Origin: Candidatus Nomurabacteria bacterium RIFCSPLOWO2_01_FULL_41_18
GTDB lineage: Bacteria > Patescibacteriota > Minisyncoccia > Phycocordibacterales > UBA9973
NCBI GenBank assembly: GCA_001785865.1
Contig: MFUZ01000006.1
Span: 111,307-175,306 of the forward strand
Direction: 5' to 3'
Length of the DNA stretch: 64,000 nucleotides
Shown: positions 8,583-59,806 of the stretch, in pieces
Position numbering within the stretch: the first letter of the stretch is position 1
Layout: each line of letters opens with the position of its first letter
Translations under genes and position numbers: made by a program
The notes under the pieces: generated by a model
Databases searched by the model: none
Seen by the model: only the letters and a program-made list of their open reading frames with translations
Told to the model about the DNA's origin: nothing

Positions 8583-10316
8583 CTAGGCAGGGTCAAAATA
8601 CTCGGGAGTATTGACAGACATCCAGTCTAGAAGTTTGCGCATGACGGATGTGGCGTTTACGTTGTTTATGGCTGGGCCGGATTCCATAACGATTGTAAAG
8701 GCAAATTTAGGGTTTTCATATGGGAAGAAGCCGATAACCCAAGAATTGACCCTTTTTTTCGCGACTCCGATCTCGGCAGTACCGGTTTTCGCGACTACTT
8801 TTACATAAGGTACGTTCAAGGATACAGCGGTGCCGTATGTTACTGCTTGTCGCATGCCGTCATGCACGACGTCGTAATATTCTTTTTTTAAGTCTATGGT
8901 TTCAAATTTTTCTTCCATTTTTTTGTCTCCCATAATAAAATGTGGAGTGAGCATCTTGCCAAAGTTCGCGATCGCGGCGGTGGCGCGCACGGCTTCGAGC
9001 GGAGTGACTTGAAATCCGTACTGGCCGATCGAGGTATGGTAAGTGTTTCCGATGCGCCATGGATCGTCCCCGAAATTCTTTAGTTTCCATGCGGGGCTCG
9101 GGATTGTCCCCTTCACTTCTCCAGCGAGGTCGATGCCAGTTTTCTGATCAAAGCCGAAAAGTTTCGCATATTTTTCCAGGTTCAATATACCCAAGCCTTT
9201 TTGATCCTCGAATCCTCCGCCGATCTCATAAAAATATACGTCGGAAGAAACCGCGAGAGCCTCGGCCATATTTGTCCAGCCGTTTACTCTCCAGTCTTTA
9301 AAAACCGTTTTTTGGTCAGGGAAATAAGGATTTGGAATAGAGATGGATCCGGTCGACAAGATTTTCTTTGAAGGATCGATCACGTTTTCCGCCAAAGCTC
9401 CAAGAGAAAAGAAGGGCTTTATGATCGAACCCGGTGTGTAGAGCCCTGAAACAGTCCGGTTTAGGAAAAATTTTCTCTCATCATGGATGTATTCATTTAT
9501 TTGTTTGGTGTCTTTGCCGAGCGATAAAATTTCTGAATCGTATTCCGGAAAACTTGTCGAAGATATTATCTCTCCATTCTGGACATCCATGATGATTCCA
9601 GCTCCGCCTGTAAATCCGTTTGTTTCCGATAATTCTTGGATGGATGAAAACAATTTCGCTTGTATTCTGGAGTCCAGGCTAGTTACCAGATCGTCTCCCT
9701 CCTTTGGTGCATTCACGATATTGAATGAATGGATGGTTCCCTTTGCGTCGGTTTCTATCATTTTTGATCCGTTTTCTCCTTTTATTTTTTCATGATATTC
9801 TTTTTCCAAGCCATTGATGCCCTCAAATTCAGTTTTCCAATAATTTCCCTCCGCATCCTTCGCGGGATAGCTCACATAGCCTAATACATGTGAAAATCCA
9901 GGAGACAAATAGGTGCGGATATACGGCAGATCCTCTTTAGGGTCAGGACTAGCAAGTGAAATTTCTACCAGCGAATCCGTCTTCTGATTCCAGGCGAGCT
10001 CTTTCATGTTTCGGTCATAAATTATTCCTCTTTCCGTAAAGATGTTAATGCTTTTCAATGTATTTTCTTCGCTTCGCTCCCTATACATATCTCCGTTTTC
10101 GATCTGCAAATAGGAGAGGCGTATAAGAAATACTAAAGTAATTAAAAGAAAAGAAGCGCCAAGCAAATTAATGGTAATTCTTGGGATTGGCTGTTCTATC
10201 CTGCCTTCAAATTGTTGGCGGTCAAAATTTTGTAAGTTCTTGGAATCAAGGAAGATCTCATCCGGATCCACCAACGCATTTATATTTCTTTTTTTTCTAA
10301 ATTTACGGAAAAACAT
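8583..10316 (-). CDS. Penicillin-binding protein 2 / FtsI-type peptidoglycan D,D-transpeptidase.
   Basis: N-terminal TM, dimerisation domain, and the transpeptidase motifs SxxK (GSIIKPF) and KTG (AKTGTAE). Confidence 0.85.
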   Translation of the reverse strand: MFFRKFRKKRNINALVDPDEIFLDSKNLQNFDRQQFEGRIEQPIPRITINLLGASFLLITLVFLIRLSYLQIENGDMYRERSEENTLKSINIFTERGIIYDRNMKELAWNQKTDSLVEISLASPDPKEDLPYIRTYLSPGFSHVLGYVSYPAKDAEGNYWKTEFEGINGLEKEYHEKIKGENGSKMIETDAKGTIHSFNIVNAPKEGDDLVTSLDSRIQAKLFSSIQELSETNGFTGGAGIIMDVQNGEIISSTSFPEYDSEILSLGKDTKQINEYIHDERKFFLNRTVSGLYTPGSIIKPFFSLGALAENVIDPSKKILSTGSISIPNPYFPDQKTVFKDWRVNGWTNMAEALAVSSDVYFYEIGGGFEDQKGLGILNLEKYAKLFGFDQKTGIDLAGEVKGTIPSPAWKLKNFGDDPWRIGNTYHTSIGQYGFQVTPLEAVRATAAIANFGKMLTPHFIMGDKKMEEKFETIDLKKEYYDVVHDGMRQAVTYGTAVSLNVPYVKVVAKTGTAEIGVAKKRVNSWVIGFFPYENPKFAFTIVMESGPAINNVNATSVMRKLLDWMSVNTPEYFDPA

Positions 10317-10320
10317 TTTT

Positions 10321-10593
10321 TTATTTGTATCTTGAATGAAACCTCAATTTTTTTTTCAAGGTCTCTAGGAGTATGAAGCAAGTGAGCGCAATGCCAAAGC
10401 AAACATAGACCATATCAAACAAGGACGGGGAAGGCGTGGCGTAAAGAAAATCTGCGACTAGGAAAATGAATACTGCTTCCAGGAAAAAAGAAAAATACGC
10501 CATGCCGGCAAACGCTAAGATGACTGATACCCAAAATGGCATAAAAAGCATGGAAAGTAAAAGTATGACAGAGGCTAAAATTCTAAGTAACAT
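10321..10593 (-). CDS. Small hypothetical membrane protein (about 3 TM).
   Basis: Hydrophobic 90-aa ORF immediately upstream of, and co-oriented with, the PBP gene. Confidence 0.35.
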   Translation of the reverse strand: MLLRILASVILLLSMLFMPFWVSVILAFAGMAYFSFFLEAVFIFLVADFLYATPSPSLFDMVYVCFGIALTCFILLETLKKKLRFHSRYK

Positions 10594-10631
10594 ATCCTTA
10601 TATTACAGACTTTATATAAAAATAAATAGAA

Positions 10632-10660
10632 TTGACAGGAATTCATATCGGGTGTATAAT
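10632..10660 (+). promoter_or_regulatory. Near-perfect consensus sigma70 promoter (TTGACA, 17-nt spacer, TGnTATAAT) driving a small GC-rich transcript.
   Basis: ttgaca at 10632-10637, a 17-nt spacer, and tgtataat ending at 10660 (extended -10). Confidence 0.5.
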
Positions 10661-10743
10661 ATATGGGTAAGTGGTTCCTTGAAACTTTAGAGGGTGTTGC
10701 CATAACTTTTAGCGTATAAAAATATTTTTGTAAATTAAAAGTT

Positions 10744-10929
10744 ATGACAACCACTAGTAGGACGGTGACCTTCCCTTGTCCGTCGAGTGAGGGCAAGGAC
10801 GTCGTTGACCATGTTGTTAACGAGGATACAAAGATGCATACCTCAAGTATCATCTTCATCGGCGACGACCAGCTCAGGGTTATGGTAAGTGGGTTTGGGT
10901 ATGGTGTCGTTTTTTGGCATATTGGATGA
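10744..10929 (+). CDS. Hypothetical 61-aa ORF within the GC-rich transcript. It could instead be part of an ncRNA.
   Basis: Lies between the consensus promoter (10632-10660) and the terminator (10967-11000). GC content is clearly above the local background. Confidence 0.2.
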   Translation: MTTTSRTVTFPCPSSEGKDVVDHVVNEDTKMHTSSIIFIGDDQLRVMVSGFGYGVVFWHIG

Positions 10930-10966
10930 TGCCCTCGCATTAGTTGCGTGAATATCAACAAAAAAC

Positions 10967-11000
10967 ACTACCGCTTCCTCTGGGGCGGTAGTTTCATTTT
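10967..11000. terminator. Bidirectional rho-independent terminator. Ends purB on the minus strand (strong T-run) and the small plus-strand transcript.
   Basis: actaccgc...gcggtagt forms an 8-bp stem, followed on the plus strand by tttcatttt and on the minus strand by tgttttttgtt. Confidence 0.55.
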
Positions 11001-11004
11001 ATAT

Positions 11005-12384
11005 TTAAGAAAGTTTTGATGCCAACCCTATATAATTCTCTGGAGTAATTTTCAAGAGTTCTTTTTTTATCTTAGTATCGATTTCGAGAGAATTGATAAA
11101 CGTGTGGATGTCTAAGAGGGTGATTTCCTTGCCTCTAGTGAGCTCCTTTAATTTTTCATACGGCATAGTCACGCCCTCCCGGCGCAAAATAGTCTGGATG
11201 GCTTCGGTGATAATTTCCGGGTGACTTTTTAAATCCCTCAAGACTTTTTCTTTATTTACCGCTATTCTACCTAATTGATTATTTAAATATTTAAAGCCTA
11301 TCAGACTGTAGGAAAAAGCCGTGCCTATGTTTCTAAGGACTGTAGAGTCCGACAGATCTCTCTGTAGCCTGGAAATTGCGAGCTTTCTTCCTAAGAATTC
11401 GAATAAAACATTTGCGGTTCCTAGATTTCCTTCACTATTTTCCAAAAACCACGGATTTATTTTATGAGGCATGGTGGAGGATCCCACTTCCCCTTCTATT
11501 GGTCTTTGGCTAATCCAATTGTCGCTGATATAACGCCACAAATCCTGGTTGAAATTTATGATAATGGAATTTATACGTTTCATGATATCAAAAATTTCAA
11601 TATAGCTGTCGTGGGGTTCTATTTGAGTAGTATATAAATTTACTTCTAACGGAACTCCTCTAAATTTTCCAATTTTGGGAATTAATGAAGAGGAAAATTT
11701 TATCCAATCAATTTTAGGGTAAGCCACAGAGAGGGCGTTGTAATTTCCCGTAGCCCCATTCAATTTGGCCAATATCTTGTGATTTTTTAATTGGTTTGTT
11801 TGACGTTTTAATCTTTCTTCAAAAATTTTAAATTCCTTTCCAAAAGTAGTAGGCGATGCGGGTTGTCCATGAGTTCTGGCAAGCATTGCAATGTTTTTAT
11901 TATCTTTTGCCAGCTTGCCTATTTTTCTGACGATATCTTCCAAGGCAGGAAAATATACATGCTCCACACTTTCGCCGATCATCAAGGCATAAGCGATGTT
12001 GCCCGCATCTTCACTGGTCAGGCCGAAATGCACAAATTCGAGAACATCATTCAAGCTTGTTTTGCGAAGTTTTTCTTTAATAAAATATTCTATCGCCTTG
12101 AAATCATGATTCGTAGCTTTTATATTTTTATATCCCTTTGTTTCAATTTTATTTATTATACTTACATCATGACTTCCTAAATTGTACAAATTTCTAACAA
12201 TTTCTTTTTCTTTTTGAGAGAATTTTCTTAAATTTATGCCGCTTGTTTCGGATAACGCGATCAAATACTCACCTTCCACAATGATTTTATATTTCATGGA
12301 TGCGGCTTCACTGAAATAAGAAATCAAATCCTTCGTATATTTTTCGTAACGTCCGTCAATTGGCGAAATTGAATTTAGTGACAT
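11005..12384 (-). CDS. purB: Adenylosuccinate lyase.
   Basis: MSLNSISPIDGRYEKYT... with full-length fumarate-lyase family similarity; the signature was read by eye. Confidence 0.9.
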   Translation of the reverse strand: MSLNSISPIDGRYEKYTKDLISYFSEAASMKYKIIVEGEYLIALSETSGINLRKFSQKEKEIVRNLYNLGSHDVSIINKIETKGYKNIKATNHDFKAIEYFIKEKLRKTSLNDVLEFVHFGLTSEDAGNIAYALMIGESVEHVYFPALEDIVRKIGKLAKDNKNIAMLARTHGQPASPTTFGKEFKIFEERLKRQTNQLKNHKILAKLNGATGNYNALSVAYPKIDWIKFSSSLIPKIGKFRGVPLEVNLYTTQIEPHDSYIEIFDIMKRINSIIINFNQDLWRYISDNWISQRPIEGEVGSSTMPHKINPWFLENSEGNLGTANVLFEFLGRKLAISRLQRDLSDSTVLRNIGTAFSYSLIGFKYLNNQLGRIAVNKEKVLRDLKSHPEIITEAIQTILRREGVTMPYEKLKELTRGKEITLLDIHTFINSLEIDTKIKKELLKITPENYIGLASKLS

Positions 12385-12398
12385 AAAATTATTACTTT

Positions 12399-13637
12399 TT
12401 AATTACTAACTATTAATGGCCGTTTCCAGAAGTGTAATATGATAAAAGCTATAATAACAAATATCGTCATGGTTATCATAGCAATTTTATATGAAAATGG
12501 CTCGGTACCGAAGAACCATATTACTCCTCCCCAAGCGAGTGGTCCCAGAAAGGTAGAAAAACGTTCAGAAAGGGTATAAAAAGAAAAGCCATAGCCCATT
12601 TCTTCGCTCGAAAGCAAAGTGCTCAAATATGCGCGAGAAGTTGCCCACATGGAGCCTATTAGTACGCCCACCAGCACAGTTGTAATTATAAATACGGTAA
12701 AATTTGGAGCCAGGGCAACAGCGGGTAACGCAATGATCCACCCTACAAGAATTATTTTAAAGGTTTTTAGTACGCCTATCCTGTCGCCTATCCATCCAGC
12801 GACGATGCCACCCAAGGCCGACATGATCAGTATTGCCATCAAAAGTATTGATTTTGTTTTGTCAGGCACAGAAAACACTCGTTCCATATATATCGAATAA
12901 TTATTGCTTGCGGTGATCACAGCGTCACTCAGAAAGAAAAAGGCCAATAACATCGGTGTTGCTAATGATAATGTCATAAAAGTAAAAAATTTCTTTTTGA
13001 AAATTATTGTTTCACTTTTTAGAATTTGAAAGCTTACTCTTTTCTCTTTTGGTTTTGAGTCTTTATAAAAGATCATCATTGGTAGTGCCAAAACAAAGAA
13101 AATAATTACCGAGGGAATAAGCGGGGCAAGTCTCGAGTCTGAAAGTGGCAGAGTGATGAGTAGGCCTACCACTTGGCCAAGTGCGTTTGAAAATTGTCCG
13201 ATCCCGGAAGCTCGCGCCCTATGGCTGGTATCGGCAATTTCCTCCAGCATTGGATTGTAAAAAATAAAGGCCAGCTGATAAAAATATTGTCCTATTAAAA
13301 AGAGGATCGCAATAAGGAAAATATTAGGCTCACTAAACCCGGAAAATATCGCAGCCAGACCATAGCATACAAAAGTGCCAATCGTAGAAATATTCAAGAA
13401 AAATTTTCTTCCACCATGCTTGTCGGTGAATGCTGCCAACGAGGGAGCGCTAAAAAATAACATTACCGTGGCTATGGCAAAAATTGCGTTGTACCAAAAA
13501 TCAGAAAGTCCGCCATTTACTACGATCCATGTCGCAAAATAAAGGACGAAATTAATAAAAGCTATTGAATTCGCAAAATCATAGAGTGACCATAGGAAAA
13601 GTTTTTTCTTGTTCATGGTTCTATATACTATCACCAT
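12399..13637 (-). CDS. MFS-type transporter. An alternative start at 13616 (MNKKK) is possible.
   Basis: About 12 predicted TM helices and the typical MFS loop composition. Confidence 0.65.
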   Translation of the reverse strand: MVIVYRTMNKKKLFLWSLYDFANSIAFINFVLYFATWIVVNGGLSDFWYNAIFAIATVMLFFSAPSLAAFTDKHGGRKFFLNISTIGTFVCYGLAAIFSGFSEPNIFLIAILFLIGQYFYQLAFIFYNPMLEEIADTSHRARASGIGQFSNALGQVVGLLITLPLSDSRLAPLIPSVIIFFVLALPMMIFYKDSKPKEKRVSFQILKSETIIFKKKFFTFMTLSLATPMLLAFFFLSDAVITASNNYSIYMERVFSVPDKTKSILLMAILIMSALGGIVAGWIGDRIGVLKTFKIILVGWIIALPAVALAPNFTVFIITTVLVGVLIGSMWATSRAYLSTLLSSEEMGYGFSFYTLSERFSTFLGPLAWGGVIWFFGTEPFSYKIAMITMTIFVIIAFIILHFWKRPLIVSN

Positions 13638-16281: not shown

Positions 16282-16328
16282 GGATTTATCTTATCATTTT
16301 TTTAAAATGAAACAAGTTTAAAAAAAAG

Positions 16329-16350
16329 AGACCAGCAGTTACGCTGGTCT
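16329..16350 (-). terminator. Rho-independent terminator on the minus strand, downstream of small ORF 16357-16521.
   Basis: agaccagc-agttac-gctggtct forms an 8-bp stem and is followed on the minus strand by a T8 run. Confidence 0.5.
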
Positions 16351-16356
16351 TGTTAA

Positions 16357-16521
16357 CTGAAAACGGATTATTGTGGTGGCGCTATTTGCCACTCACCTTC
16401 CCGCTGTTTGATCTTTTCAGCGAGTCCGGGTATTACAATACCCGGATAGAGGGGTTCCTCGGCCATTTTGAGCGGGCCTTGGTGTACAGGTTGTTTTGGT
16501 TTTTCGTCAGACGGTGCATTG
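16357..16521 (-). CDS. Hypothetical 54-aa protein (MADNAPSDEKPKQPVHQGPLKMAEEPLYPGIVIPGLAEKIKQREGEWQIAPPQ) in a GC-rich insert.
   Basis: ORF read manually. It is below the track's size cut-off and has its own terminator. Confidence 0.25.
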
Positions 16522-16684
16522 TCTGCCATAGGTTTTATTGGTTGTTGCGGTTGATGCTATGGCCCCTGTGTATTTAGTTAGAAGAACAGGAGTCTTATTA
16601 AAAATATCAAAATATTTTTGTATAGTCAAATTTTATAAAATAAAAAGCCGGCGCTGGTGGGCGCTGGCTTTCGCGATACGAAGA

Positions 16685-16924
16685 TCATGCGAGTATTTGC
16701 TCGCTTGCGTATTTCTCGTAAAGACGAGCGCCTGCTTCGTCCAGGCATTCTAGGATCGGCTGATCCAGTGCATCTACCAACCCCCACACTCCCTCTCCGA
16801 ACGGCTCGACTGGAAGGAGTTGTGCCTTCCAGGGACGTAGGTGGGTCTTGTCGAGCTCATCAAACATGTTGGAGAGCTGGGCTTGTAGCCTTTCATCGGT
16901 AAACGGATTACGTGTGCTTATCAT
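16685..16924 (-). CDS. Hypothetical 79-aa protein in a GC-rich insert, with its own downstream hairpin and T-run (about 16644-16672).
   Basis: ORF lies in a compositionally distinct GC-rich block between purE and guaA. An imperfect stem agccggcgc/gcgctggct is followed on the minus strand by a T-rich tract. Confidence 0.3.
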   Translation of the reverse strand: MISTRNPFTDERLQAQLSNMFDELDKTHLRPWKAQLLPVEPFGEGVWGLVDALDQPILECLDEAGARLYEKYASEQILA

Positions 16925-16977
16925 AATAATTTATTGCACAGTAACATTTTTTTACTTTTTAGTAAAGGTCAACGTTC

Positions 16978-21524: not shown

Positions 21525-21553
21525 TTTACAATGATAATACAATATGTTATAAT
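21525..21553 (+). promoter_or_regulatory. Candidate sigma70 promoter (TTTACA, 17-nt spacer, TATAAT) upstream of the TetR gene.
   Basis: tttaca at 21525-21530, a 17-nt spacer, and tataat at 21548-21553. Confidence 0.4.
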
Positions 21554-57173: not shown

Positions 57174-57248
57174 CAAAAGCCTGCCCCGTACTGAGCTCTG
57201 CTCTAGTACGGGGTTATCCACATCCGCCAAAGGCGGACAAGCTTGCAT

Positions 57249-57278: not shown

Positions 57279-58814
57279 ATGAAAAAAACGTCAACAAAGG
57301 AAACAGAGACCGAGCAGGAAAAGATCGGCTTTTTTATAAAAGAGCTTCGTGAACATCGTGGGATGACGCAGGAACAGTTTGCTAAAGCACTCAATACTTC
57401 TCAAAGCTCAATCCCCCGTATGGAAAAGGGTGAGCAAAATTTTACTACGGAATTACTTCTTAAAATAAGTAACGTTCTAGACCACAAAATAGTTTCTTTA
57501 AATGATTCAATTGATTTTGAAGTCACTGGAGGAAAAAAATTAAGCGGAACCATAAAAACCAATTTTTCAAAAAACGGCTCAGTTGGACTTTTGTGCGCTT
57601 CGCTTGTAAATAGCGGAGTGACAACATTGCACGGCATTGCTCGCATTGAAGAAGTGTATAGAGTAATTGAAATTCTGGAAAGTATCGGAGTCGTTGTTAA
57701 ATGGCTTAACCAAAACACTCTCACAATTACTCCTCCTAAAAAATTTAGTTTGGACAATGTAAATACAGAATCTGCGATTAAAACTCGCTCAGTTATTATG
57801 CTTGTCGGACCTCTTATTCACAAATTGTCAGCTTTCATCATTCCTCACCCCCACGGATGCAACCTTGGTAAACGCACTATTGCAGCACATATTTTTGCAT
57901 TAGAAAAACTCGGGGTAAAAATAAAAACCACAGCAAAAAATTACGATGTTTCTGCAAGAAAACTCAAACCGGGATACATAGTAATGTATGAATCCGGAGA
58001 TACTGCTTGCGAAAATGTTTTAATGGCTTCTGCCCTGATTCATGGCGTGACAAGAATAAGTTTTGCTAGTGCAAATTATATGGTGCAAGAAGTTTGTTTT
58101 TTCCTTGAGGCTTTGGGTGTGAAAATAGAAGGAATCGGCACTTGCAACCTCACTGTTCATGGAGTAAAAGAAATAAACAAAGACATAGAATATTGGAACA
58201 GCGAAGACCCGATAGAATCCATGATGTTTATTTCTGCGGGAATTATTACTGACTCAAAACTCACCATAACTAGAGCTCCTATAGATTTCTTGGCTCTGGA
58301 ATTGGAAAAACTAAAGAGAATGAATTTAAAATATAAAATTTCAAAAGTTTATAATTCATTCAACGGCCGAACTAGACTCACTGATATAGAAATTTTCCCA
58401 AGCAAACTGAAAGCGTTAAAAGACAAACTTCATTCAAATCCTTATCCGGGAATAAATATAGACAATTTGCCATTTTTTGTACCGATTGCCATCCGGGCCA
58501 AAGGACAAACGATGGTTCATGATTGGGTATATGAAAACCGAGCCATATATTTGACCGAATTAAATCGCCTAGGAGCGGACATAACCCTCGCAGACCCTCA
58601 TCGTCTCTATATTACAGGCGGTACTCCCCTAAAAGGAGCCCAAATCGTCTGCCCTCCTGCGTTGCGACCATCTATGGTTATTCTTATTTCAATGCTTGGT
58701 GCTAGTGGCACATCAATACTCCGAAATGTCTATATGATAAATCGAGGCTATGAAGAAATTGTAGAAAGATTAAATTCCATCGGCGCGGATATTAAAATAA
58801 TAAAGGGGAATTAA
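57279..58814 (+). CDS. murA: XRE-family HTH domain fused to UDP-N-acetylglucosamine 1-carboxyvinyltransferase (MurA). The start is set at MKKTSTKE.
   Basis: The N-terminal about 70 aa, 'IGFFIKELREHRGMTQEQFAKALNTSQSSIPRMEKGEQNFTTELLLKISNVL', form a Cro/C1-type HTH. The rest aligns end-to-end with MurA (…FEVTGGKKLSGTIK…, active-site Cys in PHPHGCNLGKR, …RGYEEIVERLNSIGADIKI…). Confidence 0.7.
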   Translation: MKKTSTKETETEQEKIGFFIKELREHRGMTQEQFAKALNTSQSSIPRMEKGEQNFTTELLLKISNVLDHKIVSLNDSIDFEVTGGKKLSGTIKTNFSKNGSVGLLCASLVNSGVTTLHGIARIEEVYRVIEILESIGVVVKWLNQNTLTITPPKKFSLDNVNTESAIKTRSVIMLVGPLIHKLSAFIIPHPHGCNLGKRTIAAHIFALEKLGVKIKTTAKNYDVSARKLKPGYIVMYESGDTACENVLMASALIHGVTRISFASANYMVQEVCFFLEALGVKIEGIGTCNLTVHGVKEINKDIEYWNSEDPIESMMFISAGIITDSKLTITRAPIDFLALELEKLKRMNLKYKISKVYNSFNGRTRLTDIEIFPSKLKALKDKLHSNPYPGINIDNLPFFVPIAIRAKGQTMVHDWVYENRAIYLTELNRLGADITLADPHRLYITGGTPLKGAQIVCPPALRPSMVILISMLGASGTSILRNVYMINRGYEEIVERLNSIGADIKIIKGN

Positions 58815-59806
58815 TGCGCAAATTGAAAAATAACTTTTTGCGGGGTTTCGAGGCTGACGAGCCGAGAACTTCAGGATTTTTTAAGCTTAAAAAAATCCGT
58901 ACCAAAAAAAAGTTCATTTTTCAATCTGCGCCCACAATCATTGTTATCTTAGGTCAAACTGCTACAGGTAAAAGCAATTTGGCAGTAAAAATTGCCCTTC
59001 GGCTACGCTCTGGACCTTCGGCCCGAAAATATGGTGGTGAAATTATTTCTGCCGATTCAAGGCAAGTTTATAAAGGGCTTGATATAGGCACGGGTAAAAT
59101 TACTAAAAGAGAAATGAAGGGTGTTCCACATCATTTACTTGATGTAGTAAACCCAAAATACAAATTTACTGTTGCAGAATATAAGGAATTAGCTGAAGAA
59201 AAAATAAAAGAAATAATTGCTCGTGGTAAGACTCCAATAATCTGCGGAGGTACAGGATTTTATATTGATGCCGTCACCAAGGGCATAATTTTCCCCGAAG
59301 TGCCGCCAAACGTAAAACTTCGCAAACAACTTACTTCAAAATCTGCTATCGCATTATTTAAAGTATTAAAAAAGTTAGATTCAGAAAGATCCAAGACCAT
59401 AGACTCTAGAAATAAAGTCAGATTGATCCGAGCGATAGAAATAGCGAAAGCTCTAGGCAAAGTCCCAGAAATTACTGAGGTCTTGCCTCAATATAAATTT
59501 ATAAAAATTGGGTTATATCTCCCACCGGATAAATTAAAAAAGAAAGTAGAGAAAAGAGTCAAAAAAATGTTTGACAATGGCTTGTTGAAAGAAATTAAAA
59601 AAATAAAAAAGAGTGGAATGTCAAACAAAAGACTTCAAGAACTGGGTTTTGAATATTTTAATCCTACTTACGAAAAAGTTGTGAAAGGCACTTTACAATA
59701 TGCCAAACGCCAAATGACATGGTTTAAGCGTGATAAAGAAATAAAATGGTTTGATGCGTCAAAAGGACACACATTGACTATTTTAGGGAAAAGTATAAGA
59801 ATATAG
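58814..59806 (+). CDS. miaA: tRNA dimethylallyltransferase.
   Basis: P-loop 'IIVILGQTATGKSNLAVKIA' and a DSRQVYKGLDIGT motif. TAATG overlap with the upstream gene. Confidence 0.85.
   Translation: MRKLKNNFLRGFEADEPRTSGFFKLKKIRTKKKFIFQSAPTIIVILGQTATGKSNLAVKIALRLRSGPSARKYGGEIISADSRQVYKGLDIGTGKITKREMKGVPHHLLDVVNPKYKFTVAEYKELAEEKIKEIIARGKTPIICGGTGFYIDAVTKGIIFPEVPPNVKLRKQLTSKSAIALFKVLKKLDSERSKTIDSRNKVRLIRAIEIAKALGKVPEITEVLPQYKFIKIGLYLPPDKLKKKVEKRVKKMFDNGLLKEIKKIKKSGMSNKRLQELGFEYFNPTYEKVVKGTLQYAKRQMTWFKRDKEIKWFDASKGHTLTILGKSIRI

What the first reader, a model, noticed from the sequence alone, without database searches (positions are those of the whole stretch)
10632..11000. Orphan transcript: consensus TTGACA-17-TGnTATAAT promoter, GC-rich body, terminator. 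ncRNA or small protein.
It is the best promoter match in the window (extended -10), so it is probably real. It drives plus-strand transcription of about 330 nt, ending at a hairpin shared with the purB terminator. The body is markedly more GC-rich than the flanking DNA and holds only a 61-aa ORF without a clear SD sequence. GC-rich islands in AT-rich genomes are often structured RNAs. The 5' part did not match purine or T-box riboswitch signatures.
Basis: seen in the sequence. Interest (0 to 1): 0.5.

Follow-up and report, generated by a model that had tools for sequence, protein, structure and literature searches.

The report
Species-specific orphan transcript beside purB
A 400-base spacer found in only one groundwater Nomurabacteria species has a textbook promoter and terminator around a well-folding body with no relatives in any database, so it is probably a young orphan RNA or mini-gene and belongs to no known RNA family.

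Summary
The signals are real. TTGACA-17-TATAAT (10632-10660, +) is the only 12/12 promoter match in the window. An 11-bp bidirectional terminator lies at 10967-10992, shared with convergent purB. The ~330-nt plus-strand RNA between them folds unusually well (z -4.4 to -5.0; genome background -0.33 +/- 1.23).

Three details of the finding fail:
- There is no true TGn extended -10.
- The body's GC (0.495) is only the 94th percentile of the window.
- The missing SD is uninformative, because only 8 of 47 genes here have one.

The source is Ca. Nomurabacteria RIFCSPHIGHO2_01_FULL_42_15. The 411-nt purB-mreD spacer is 100% identical in 11 assemblies of this species. It is absent from every closest relative whose purB-mreD junction could be read (purB 81-82% identical), where purB and mreD are about 9 nt apart.

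No homolog turned up in Rfam, Pfam, PHROGs, PADLOC, NCBIfam, 5.8 billion protein clusters, 1.84 billion representatives, phages, plasmids, or viral and metagenome contigs. Only the 40 nt next to mreD are conserved; they are mreD's own leaderless-type promoter.

Both candidate start codons are buried in structure, which favours an RNA over a protein, but coding status is unresolved and function unknown. It is an ordinary orphan of low to moderate interest.

The parts
10596..10635 (-). Conserved mreD promoter region. The -10-like TAATAT (10605..10600) lies 6 nt before the mreD ATG (10593), a leaderless-type layout. This is the only part of the spacer with homologs.
   Evidence: The motif GTGTAAKAT-N6-ATG precedes mreD in nearly all relatives. 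The window segment is significantly similar to the X-mreD intergenic region of L043 (19.5 against null 10.4 +/- 1.7, 0/500), L064 and L026.
10611..10631 (+). A/T-rich tract directly upstream of the -35. It looks like an UP element, which is an inference, and it overlaps the mreD promoter on the other strand.
   Evidence: Sequence read. No test was done.
10632..10660 (+). Sigma-70 consensus promoter: TTGACA, 17-nt spacer, TATAAT. There is no canonical TGn.
10666..10668 (+). Predicted transcription start (G residues 6-8 nt after the -10). This is an inference.
   Evidence: Sequence, using the standard -10-to-start spacing.
10690..10773 (+). 5' domain: a three-way junction built on a long AT-rich imperfect palindrome (10696-10751, 16+7 bp, -21 kcal/mol). 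Its 3' arm buries AUG 10744.
   Evidence: (I1).
10744..10929 (+). 61-aa orphan ORF, annotated in GenBank as hypothetical protein A2738_01550. Its coding status is unresolved.
10822..10929 (+). Alternative 31-aa ORF (AUG 10834) with GAGGA (10822-10826) 7 nt upstream. The start codon is paired in a 10-bp hairpin (10831-10856).
10774..10950 (+). GC-richer body with six predicted hairpins. The largest has 21 bp (10861-10883 / 10889-10911) and is rich in G-U pairs.
10967..10992 (.). Bidirectional intrinsic terminator stem-loop. The + strand tail is UUUCAUUUUAU (10993-11003). The - strand tail is GUUUUUUGUUG (10966-10956) and terminates purB.
10575..10961 (-). 128-aa open frame on the purB/mreD strand. 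It is unexpectedly long, but it is not gene-like in codon usage or composition and has no homolog. It remains unexplained.

Best explanation
The 411-nt purB-mreD spacer of this one Nomurabacteria species holds a young, lineage-specific, independently transcribed unit. A consensus sigma-70 promoter sits back-to-back with mreD's own conserved promoter. It drives a plus-strand RNA of about 330 nt that stops at a bidirectional terminator shared with convergent purB.

The RNA most likely acts as RNA, meaning it is non-coding or at most poorly translated. It would be a compact multi-hairpin molecule with a 5' three-way junction, six body hairpins and the terminator.

Shown: the signals, the strand-biased folding, the restriction to one species, and the absence of any homolog.

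Inferred: that the unit is transcribed, that it is not translated, and any function. The only effects that follow from its position are two. It is fully antisense to any purB read-through. Its strong promoter abuts, and could compete with, the weak mreD-pbp2 promoter. No trans target can be named.
For: - Promoter: the only 12/12 match in 64 kb, and near-matches are enriched over shuffles. Other genes in this genome carry TATAAT-type promoters.
- Terminator: U-tracts on both sides of the stem.
- Folding on the + strand: MFE -111.7 kcal/mol, with z = -5.0 or -4.4. Fifty-eight background windows give mean -0.33, sd 1.23. Without the terminator z is still -3.45.
- Folding on the - strand is weaker: z = -3.0, or -1.85 without the terminator. 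Of 110 predicted pairs, 19 are G-U.
- Start codons are occluded. P(unpaired) is 0.002 for AUG 10744 and 0.001 for AUG 10834. The initiation region of AUG 10744 scores 0.16, below all 47 real genes (0.53 +/- 0.12, minimum 0.29) in an SD-poor genome.
- ORF61 has no homolog in 5.8 billion clusters or in 1.84 billion representatives searched with full phmmer. It has no Pfam, PHROG, PADLOC or NCBIfam match. The AF2 model has pLDDT 49.
- The sequence is genuine: it is 100% identical in 11 independent assemblies.
Against: - No expression data are available.
- No relative carries the element, so neither covariation nor purifying selection can be tested.
- Much of the folding signal comes from the terminator and one AT-rich hairpin. 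The GC-rich body alone has z of about -2.1 to -2.3, and one background window reached -4.25.
- ORF61 is the best-scoring of the six frames. Its score of 0.087 lies between real genes (0.166 +/- 0.073) and spurious ORFs (-0.002 +/- 0.097). Its GC1 > GC2 and high GC3 pattern is compatible with a foreign coding sequence. An ORF of at least 61 aa arises in only 5% of shuffles.
- The long open frame on the minus strand (P = 0.001) is not explained by this model.
Confidence: 0.4

Rival explanations
1. The transcript is the mRNA of an orphan small protein. This would be either the annotated 61-aa ORF (10744-10929) or the 31-aa C-terminal peptide from AUG 10834 with its GAGGA. It may have arrived as a promoter-ORF-terminator cassette from a GC-richer donor, with translation gated by the 5' hairpin.
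For: - Every gene caller annotated ORF61.
- It has the best codon score of the six frames (0.087). GC1/2/3 are 0.48/0.41/0.57, against 0.47/0.36/0.37 for genes of this genome, which fits a foreign gene.
- An ORF of at least 61 aa arises in 5% of shuffles.
- The missing SD is normal here, since only 8 of 47 genes have one.
- The GC-rich zone coincides with the ORF.
Against: - No homolog among 1.84 billion representatives or 5.8 billion clusters, and none in metagenome or viral contigs by degenerate peptide patterns.
- The codon score is as compatible with a spurious ORF as with a gene (likelihood ratio about 1).
- Both start codons are paired with P > 0.99. The AUG 10744 region is less accessible than that of any of the 47 real genes.
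- AF2 gives pLDDT 49.
Confidence: 0.27
2. The spacer is functionless DNA with fortuitous signals. It would be either the decayed remnant of the membrane-protein gene 'X' that some relatives carry between purB and mreD, or a scrap of foreign DNA. It may be transcribed, but nothing is under selection except the purB terminator and the mreD promoter.
For: - The junction is variable. Relatives hold nothing (about 9 nt), an 86-115-aa or roughly 280-aa protein X on the purB strand, or a Cys-rich protein of roughly 420-590 aa.
- Spacers holding the short form of X measure 304-407 nt, against 411 nt here.
- The mreD-proximal 40 nt match the X-mreD intergenic region of relatives that carry X.
- The long minus-strand open frame (P = 0.001) lies on the X strand. 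It holds a weak match to the X hallmark FNxKxxFY (2.3 bits; 5% of shuffles reach this as best of six frames).
Against: - There is no significant similarity to X. The best tblastn hit of 19.6 bits is reached by 14% of shuffles, an earlier HMM search was not significant, and the purB-proximal DNA gives p = 0.26.
- A neutrally decaying relic in a 40% GC genome should not be 49.5% GC, and X genes of relatives are at or below their genome's GC.
- A perfect 12/12 promoter is expected about 0.03-0.09 times per window by chance (estimated from base composition), and here it is paired with a proper terminator.
- The fold z-score is strand-biased.
Confidence: 0.2
3. The real gene is on the minus strand. 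ORF128 (or a shorter form starting at an internal ATG) would be a highly diverged ortholog of junction gene X, and the plus-strand signals would be incidental.
For: The open frame is far longer than chance predicts (P = 0.001). It has the strand, position and size of X, two hydrophobic stretches, and a weak FNxKxxFY match.
Against: - Its codon score of -0.053 is 3.8 sd below real 128-codon segments (minimum -0.009).
- GC1 is 0.34, and the composition is not protein-like (A 0.8%, D 1.6%, E 1.6%, G 2.3%).
- The only hit is its own copy from the same source, and there is no Pfam match.
- It lacks the C-terminal TM + LRYIW of X.
- It begins inside the U-tract of a strong purB terminator with no promoter in between, and it runs through the mreD promoter into mreD.
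Confidence: 0.05
4. It is a type I toxin-antitoxin-like locus. A highly structured, translationally silent mRNA would encode a small hydrophobic peptide and be controlled by an antisense RNA.
For: The locus shows a strong promoter, a structured 5' region that sequesters the start codons, a hydrophobic 31-aa C-terminal peptide preceded by GAGGA, lineage restriction, and a weak minus-strand promoter-like site at 10750..10721 (9/12).
Against: - The peptide has no continuous hydrophobic helix of 18 residues or more, because DDQLR interrupts it.
- There is no match to any toxin family in Rfam, Pfam, PADLOC or NCBIfam.
- No defined antisense transcription unit with its own terminator is present.
Confidence: 0.05
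5. It is a divergent member of a known housekeeping or regulatory RNA family, such as 6S, SRP, RNase P, tmRNA or a riboswitch.
For: Its size and stand-alone promoter/terminator layout resemble 6S and other stable RNAs.
Against: - No Rfam match reaches gathering score. At E <= 10 only the terminator hairpin (BSnc120, 24.5 of 114 bits) and miRNA models on the AT hairpin appear.
- ARAGORN finds no tmRNA.
- The element is absent from all relatives at this site.
- There is no downstream plus-strand gene for a riboswitch to control.
Confidence: 0.02

Closest known systems
Stand-alone intergenic bacterial sRNA genes (sigma-70 promoter plus Rho-independent terminator), many of them species-specific
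   Same: Own consensus promoter, intrinsic terminator, intergenic location, strong predicted structure, no conserved ORF, and a narrow phylogenetic range.
   Different: At about 330 nt it is long for this class. It contains a 61-aa ORF, has no identified seed or target, and no chaperone context is known in Patescibacteria. Expression is untested.
ORFan small-protein genes (GenBank: hypothetical protein A2738_01550)
   Same: A short ORF with its own promoter and terminator, atypical GC3 suggesting foreign or recent origin, and no homologs.
   Different: The start codons are buried in stable helices, unlike any of the 47 neighbouring genes. The codon score is ambiguous, and the AF2 model has low confidence.
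Type I toxin mRNAs (hok/Sok, TisB/IstR, BsrG/SR4 type)
   Same: A structured mRNA with an occluded start and a short, partly hydrophobic peptide, restricted to one lineage.
   Different: No proper transmembrane helix, no recognisable antitoxin RNA gene, and no family match.
6S RNA
   Same: A stable-RNA-like unit with a very strong promoter and a terminator.
   Different: The predicted fold is a string of hairpins, not a rod with a central bubble. There is no Rfam 6S hit, and relatives do not conserve it.

Membership tests
Sigma-70 promoter with extended -10 | -35 TTGACA and -10 TATAAT separated by 16-18 nt | tested here: met
   12/12 match with a 17-nt spacer at 10632-10660.
Sigma-70 promoter with extended -10 | TG at -15/-14 (TGnTATAAT) | tested here: not met
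   The sequence is GGTGTATAAT, so TG is at -14/-13, and the scan flag reads 'no'. Four leaderless-type promoters elsewhere in the window do have TGnTATAAT.
Bidirectional intrinsic terminator | A GC-rich stem-loop flanked by an A-tract upstream and a U-tract downstream, so that both strands read hairpin plus U-run | tested here: met
   11-bp stem at 10967-10992, scoring -16.3 kcal/mol (+) and -15.4 (-). The tails are UUUCAUUUUAU (+) and GUUUUUUGUUG (-).
Any Rfam family (6S, SRP, RNase P, purine/ZTP riboswitch, T-box, ribozymes, known sRNAs) | Covariance-model score at or above the family gathering threshold | tested here: not met
   The whole window yields only 2 tRNAs. For 10500-11100 at E <= 10, the best match is BSnc120 at 24.5 bits against 114 needed, and it lies on the terminator hairpin.
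tmRNA / tRNA | tRNA-like domain and tag reading frame | tested here: not met
   ARAGORN finds only tRNA-Gln and tRNA-Leu, both elsewhere in the window.
Conserved structured ncRNA (generic criterion) | Homologs in other genomes with compensatory base changes | tested here: not met
   No homolog was found in 80 syntenic loci, in any closest relative whose junction could be read, or in phages, plasmids, viral or metagenome contigs. Eleven assemblies of the same species are 100% identical, so covariation cannot be assessed.
Protein family for ORF61 | Detectable homologs or a domain match | tested here: not met
Type I toxin-antitoxin | Toxin peptide with one transmembrane helix of about 18 or more hydrophobic residues | tested here: not met
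   By inspection of the sequence, the peptide MHTSSIIFIGDDQLRVMVSGFGYGVVFWHIG has its hydrophobic runs broken by DDQLR.
Type I toxin-antitoxin | A cis- or trans-encoded antisense RNA gene overlapping the toxin mRNA | tested here: inconclusive
   Only a 9/12 promoter-like site is present on the - strand at 10750..10721, with no dedicated terminator.
Junction gene X (membrane protein between purB and mreD in relatives) | The motifs TPxF, LExFR and FNxKxIFY followed by a C-terminal TM helix and LRYIW | tested here: not met
   The best tblastn hit of 19.6 bits is matched by 14% of shuffles. The HMM gives 2.3 bits, reached by 5% of shuffles. No TM + LRYIW is present in any frame.
MITE / small mobile element | Terminal inverted repeats, target-site duplication and multiple copies | tested here: not met
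   Only an AT-rich 13-nt inverted repeat of 85% identity lies at the ends (I5). There is no second copy in the window and none in viral or metagenome contigs. The rest of the genome was not searchable.

The most novel reading that the evidence does not exclude
A structured regulatory RNA, or a dual-function RNA with a mini-ORF, was born de novo or newly captured in an ultra-small CPR genome. It occupies the variable slot between purB and the cell-wall genes mreD-pbp2. Its perfect promoter sits back-to-back with the mreD promoter, and the RNA lies antisense to purB read-through. In this reading it couples or insulates purine-operon and cell-wall gene expression in this one species.
Probability: 0.12. 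Interest if true: 0.5.

Novelty: new member of a known kind. Interest (0 to 1): 0.25.

Why it matters
If it is expressed, it would be a rare concrete candidate for a lineage-specific RNA or mini-gene in Patescibacteria, whose non-coding RNA repertoire is almost unknown. It would also show that even extremely reduced genomes acquire new transcription units at plastic operon junctions. In practice, it shows that the GenBank 'hypothetical protein' A2738_01550 rests on an ORF call alone. As it stands, the element is confined to one species and untestable by comparison, so it is an ordinary orphan.

Tried and rejected
- Rfam at gathering score and at E <= 10, and ARAGORN: nothing.
- blastn, nhmmer and tblastx of the spacer against 80 syntenic loci: nothing beyond noise. 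There is no second copy in the window.
- ORF61 and ORF128 against the 5.8-billion-cluster database, and ORF61 against 1.84 billion representatives: only self hits.
- Pfam on ORF61, ORF128 and stop-masked (X) stretches of the four other reading frames; PHROGs, PADLOC and NCBIfam on the two ORFs: nothing.
- Phage and plasmid BLAST, three exact 22-25-mers in viral contigs, one 21-mer in metagenome contigs, and degenerate peptide patterns in metagenome and viral contigs: nothing.
- Ten look-ups of contigs encoding purB or mreD (two with the window's own proteins, eight with purB relatives). They returned identical copies from the same species. Among closest relatives, those whose junction could be read are compact (about 9 nt), two contigs end before the junction (L099, L103), and one scaffold (L097) has a different neighbourhood.
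- The idea that the spacer is a decayed copy of junction gene X. I saw apparent matches by eye (TTA..AVV at the terminator, KNDTIP, FKEPL..). Shuffle controls put them at chance level.
- A leaderless 18-aa ORF from ATG 10663: rejected because it starts only 2 nt after the -10.
- A CsrB-like sponge RNA: four GGA motifs counted by eye against roughly 6 estimated by chance from base composition, so no enrichment.
- AF2 on ORF61: uninformative, pLDDT 49.
- A single-sequence covariance model was not built. The only searchable DNA was +/-4 kb around purB in relatives that visibly lack the spacer.

Full report
**Where we are.** The window comes from Candidatus Nomurabacteria bacterium RIFCSPHIGHO2_01_FULL_42_15 (GCA_001785375.1, contig MFTS01000003.1), a Patescibacteria genome from the Rifle aquifer. 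The finding lies in the 411-nt gap between two minus-strand genes. One is a 90-aa MreD-like membrane protein (10321-10593), followed by PBP2 (8583-10316). The other is purB (11005-12384).

**Check of the observation.**
- TTGACA (10632-10637), a 17-nt spacer and TATAAT (10655-10660) form the only 12/12 sigma-70 match in the 64-kb window.
- With up to one mismatch there are three sites against 0.65 expected, and no shuffle reaches three. One of the other two sites sits directly upstream of a gene start (21525-21553, before GTG 21560), so such matches are meaningful in this genome.
- The 'extended -10' is not there. The sequence is GGTG-TATAAT, so TG is one position off, and the scan flags it 'no'.
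- An 11-bp stem-loop at 10967-10992 has U-rich tails on both strands. It scores -16.3 kcal/mol on the plus strand and -15.4 on the minus strand. It therefore serves both the putative plus-strand transcript and convergent purB.
- The body is GC-richer than its flanks (0.48-0.50 against 0.25-0.38). However, 0.495 is only the 94th percentile of 200-nt windows in a window averaging 0.398.
- The 61-aa ORF exists. Its lack of an SD means nothing here, because only 8 of 47 genes in the window have an SD-like motif. Several genes instead carry TGnTATAAT 5-7 nt before the start codon, the signature of leaderless mRNAs.

**Folding.** The 334-nt plus-strand RNA (10667-11000) has an MFE of -111.7 kcal/mol.
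- Its z-score is -5.0 by the tool and -4.4 in my own run. Fifty-eight background windows of the same length give mean -0.33, sd 1.23, minimum -4.25.
- The minus strand folds less well: z = -3.0 to -3.1.
- Without the terminator the values are -3.45 (+) and -1.85 (-). The GC-rich body alone gives only -2.1 to -2.3.
- Much of the signal therefore comes from the terminator and from one long AT-rich imperfect palindrome (10696-10751, -21 kcal/mol). That palindrome forms the core of a 5' three-way junction.
- The model has 110 pairs, 19 of them G-U. This explains the strand bias and fits a plus-strand RNA, but does not prove one.

**Known families.**
- Rfam finds only two tRNAs in the window at gathering score.
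- On 10500-11100 at E <= 10, the best match is the generic terminator hairpin (BSnc120, 24.5 of 114 bits), plus miRNA models on the AT hairpin.
- ARAGORN finds no tmRNA.
- No riboswitch, T-box, 6S, SRP or RNase P signal appears. No plus-strand gene lies downstream for a leader to control.

**Conservation.** Eighty syntenic loci from other Patescibacteria (purB 50-82% identical) were fetched. The order purC-purB-mreD-pbp2 is widely conserved. Nothing resembling the spacer is found by blastn, nhmmer or tblastx.
- Eleven further assemblies of the same species, from independent samples, carry the region at 100% identity over 801 nt. The sequence is therefore genuine, but it offers no variation to analyse.
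- The protein database shows a jump from 100% to 83% purB identity. Eight of the closest relatives were retrieved.
- In those whose junction could be read, purB's stop codon is followed by about 9 nt (TATAGAAAG) and then the mreD ATG. There is no spacer, no terminator and no plus-strand unit. In one of them (L100) mreD was not called, but the 289-nt gap matches its size.
- Two retrieved contigs end at or just past purB (L099, L103). One 83% relative (L097) has a different downstream neighbourhood with no similarity.
- The spacer has no match in phage or plasmid collections, in viral contigs or in metagenome contigs.

**What is conserved: the mreD promoter.** Aligning the 60 nt upstream of mreD across relatives reveals a nearly universal motif, GTGTAAKAT-N6-ATG. 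This is a -10-like element at leaderless distance from the start codon.
- In relatives that carry an extra gene before mreD, the motif is preceded by TTTGTATTTT at roughly the -35 position.
- The window's 10596-10635 (minus strand) is significantly similar to that intergenic region. Against L043 it scores 19.5 with a null of 10.4 +/- 1.7 (0 of 500 shuffles). L064 and L026 give similar results. The compact relative L092 is not significant.
- So mreD-pbp2 has its own promoter. The lineage-specific part of the spacer is about 10636-11004. The consensus plus-strand promoter sits back-to-back with the mreD promoter, with the two -35 regions a few base pairs apart.

**A variable junction, and a test of the relic idea.** Relatives hold one of three things at this junction on the purB strand, none with a Pfam match:
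- nothing;
- an uncharacterised membrane protein 'X' of 86-115 aa or about 280 aa, with motifs TPxF, LExFR, FNxKxIFY, a C-terminal TM helix and LRYIW;
- a Cys-rich protein of roughly 420-590 aa.

Spacers holding the short form of X measure 304-407 nt, close to the 411 nt here. I therefore tested whether the spacer is a decayed X.
- By eye there were tempting matches. Shuffle controls do not support them.
- The best tblastn hit of 19.6 bits is reached by 14% of shuffled spacers.
- An 11-member HMM gives 2.3 bits at the FNxKxxFY motif, reached by 5% of shuffles as best of six frames. An earlier 8-member HMM was not significant.
- The purB-proximal 100 nt give p = 0.26.
- The 49.5% GC of the body also argues against neutral decay in a 40% GC genome. 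X genes in relatives are at or below their genome's GC.

**Coding or not.** The evidence points weakly in both directions.

For ORF61 as a gene:
- It is the best of the six frames by a codon log-odds score trained on the window's 47 genes. Its 0.087 lies between real 61-codon segments (0.166 +/- 0.073) and spurious ORFs (-0.002 +/- 0.097), so the score does not discriminate.
- Its GC3 of 0.57 is atypical for this genome (0.37 +/- 0.09).
- An ATG-ORF of at least 61 codons arises in 5% of shuffled transcripts.

Against ORF61 as a gene:
- It has no homolog in 5.8 billion clusters or in 1.84 billion representatives by full phmmer.
- It has no domain match, and the AF2 model has pLDDT 49.
- In a genome that relies on open initiation regions rather than SD, the 47 real genes have a mean P(unpaired) of 0.53 +/- 0.12 (minimum 0.29) over -10..+12. 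AUG 10744 scores 0.16, with the codon itself at 0.002, because it sits in the 3' arm of the AT hairpin.
- The internal AUG 10834 has GAGGA 7 nt upstream and would give a 31-aa peptide. It is also paired (0.001), although its surrounding region is average.

This tips me towards an RNA that is not efficiently translated, with modest confidence.

**An unexplained feature.** The minus strand holds a 128-aa open frame (10575-10961) on the same strand as purB and mreD. It is much longer than chance predicts (P = 0.001).
- It does not look like a gene. Its codon score of -0.053 is 3.8 sd below real segments, GC1 is 0.34, and it has almost no Ala, Asp, Glu or Gly.
- It has no homolog apart from its own copy.
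- It starts in the U-tract of the purB terminator and runs through the mreD promoter into mreD.
- I cannot explain the open frame. It keeps alive, at low probability, the idea that the body descends from gene X.

**Most likely mechanism.** This is a species-specific, independently transcribed unit. A strong promoter drives an RNA of about 330 nt that ends at a bidirectional terminator, and the RNA most likely acts as RNA (confidence 0.4).
- The signals, the strand-biased fold and the restriction to one species are shown. Transcription, non-translation and any function are inferred.
- By position, the RNA is fully antisense to any purB read-through. Its promoter could compete with, or stimulate through supercoiling, the adjacent weak mreD-pbp2 promoter.
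- Compact relatives have no terminator between purB and mreD. This species uncouples the two, but that needs only the terminator, not the RNA.
- The rivals are an orphan small-protein mRNA (0.27), functionless relic or foreign DNA with fortuitous signals (0.20), a minus-strand gene (0.05), a type I toxin-like locus (0.05) and a divergent known RNA family (0.02).

**Verdict.** The element belongs to no known family. In kind it is an ordinary lineage-specific orphan, either an sRNA or a mini-ORF. Interest is low to moderate, and only expression data or newly sampled close relatives could take it further.

Noticed in passing
window 10596-10635 (- strand); loci L001-L080 just upstream of the mreD ATG: A nearly universal motif, GTGTAAKAT-N6-ATG, precedes mreD across Nomurabacteria-like genomes. 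It is preceded by TTTGTATTTT where another gene lies upstream. It looks like a conserved leaderless-type promoter. In compact genomes its -10 overlaps the purB stop codon.
   Followed up: partly
loci L009, L012, L013, L026, L027, L043, L044, L050, L058, L061, L064 (between purB and mreD): An uncharacterised membrane-protein family 'X' occupies the slot where mreC would be expected. It comes as 86-115 aa or about 280 aa, with motifs TPxF, LExFR, FNxKxIFY, a C-terminal TM helix and LRYIW. It has no Pfam match and is present or absent in patches among relatives.
   Followed up: partly
loci L005, L012, L034, L038 (between purB and mreD): A Cys-rich protein of roughly 420-590 aa with many CxxC pairs and a conserved C-terminus (...EKCYQQEVY) is inserted at the same junction. 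It has no Pfam match.
   Followed up: no
window gene starts 21560 (+), 38832 (-), 43862 (-), 44624 (-), and genome-wide: The genome is SD-poor: only 8 of 47 genes have an SD-like motif. Several genes have TGnTATAAT 5-7 nt before the start codon, implying frequent leaderless mRNAs.
   Followed up: partly
window 10575-10961 (- strand): A 128-aa open frame is far longer than expected (P = 0.001 by dinucleotide shuffling). Yet its codon usage and composition are non-coding-like, and it has no homolog. This is unexplained.
   Followed up: yes
window 12399-13637 (-): An MFS transporter gene sits between purC and purB in this species and a few relatives (L021, L047, L092-L095). Most relatives lack it, so the purine operon is plastic at more than one junction.
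   Followed up: no
window 16282-16977: This 696-nt stretch between guaA and purE has no ORF longer than 81 aa. It holds plausible small minus-strand ORFs (79 aa at 16685-16924 and 53 aa at 16368-16529). A strong minus-strand terminator lies at 16350-16329, just before purE. There is no Rfam hit at E <= 0.05.
   Followed up: partly
window 59301-59634 (- strand): This background window has a fold z-score of -4.25. It is antisense to the coding region 58814-59806 and was the most structured of the 58 control windows.
   Followed up: no
window 57176-57240: Two GC-rich hairpins (gcctgccccgtac...gtacggggt and ccgccaaaggcgg) lie directly after tRNA-Leu and before the next gene. They are probably terminators.
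   Followed up: no
locus L097 (purB 83% identical): One of the closest relatives by purB identity has a completely different neighbourhood downstream of purB. It has opposite-strand genes and a scaffold gap of Ns instead of mreD-pbp2.
   Followed up: no
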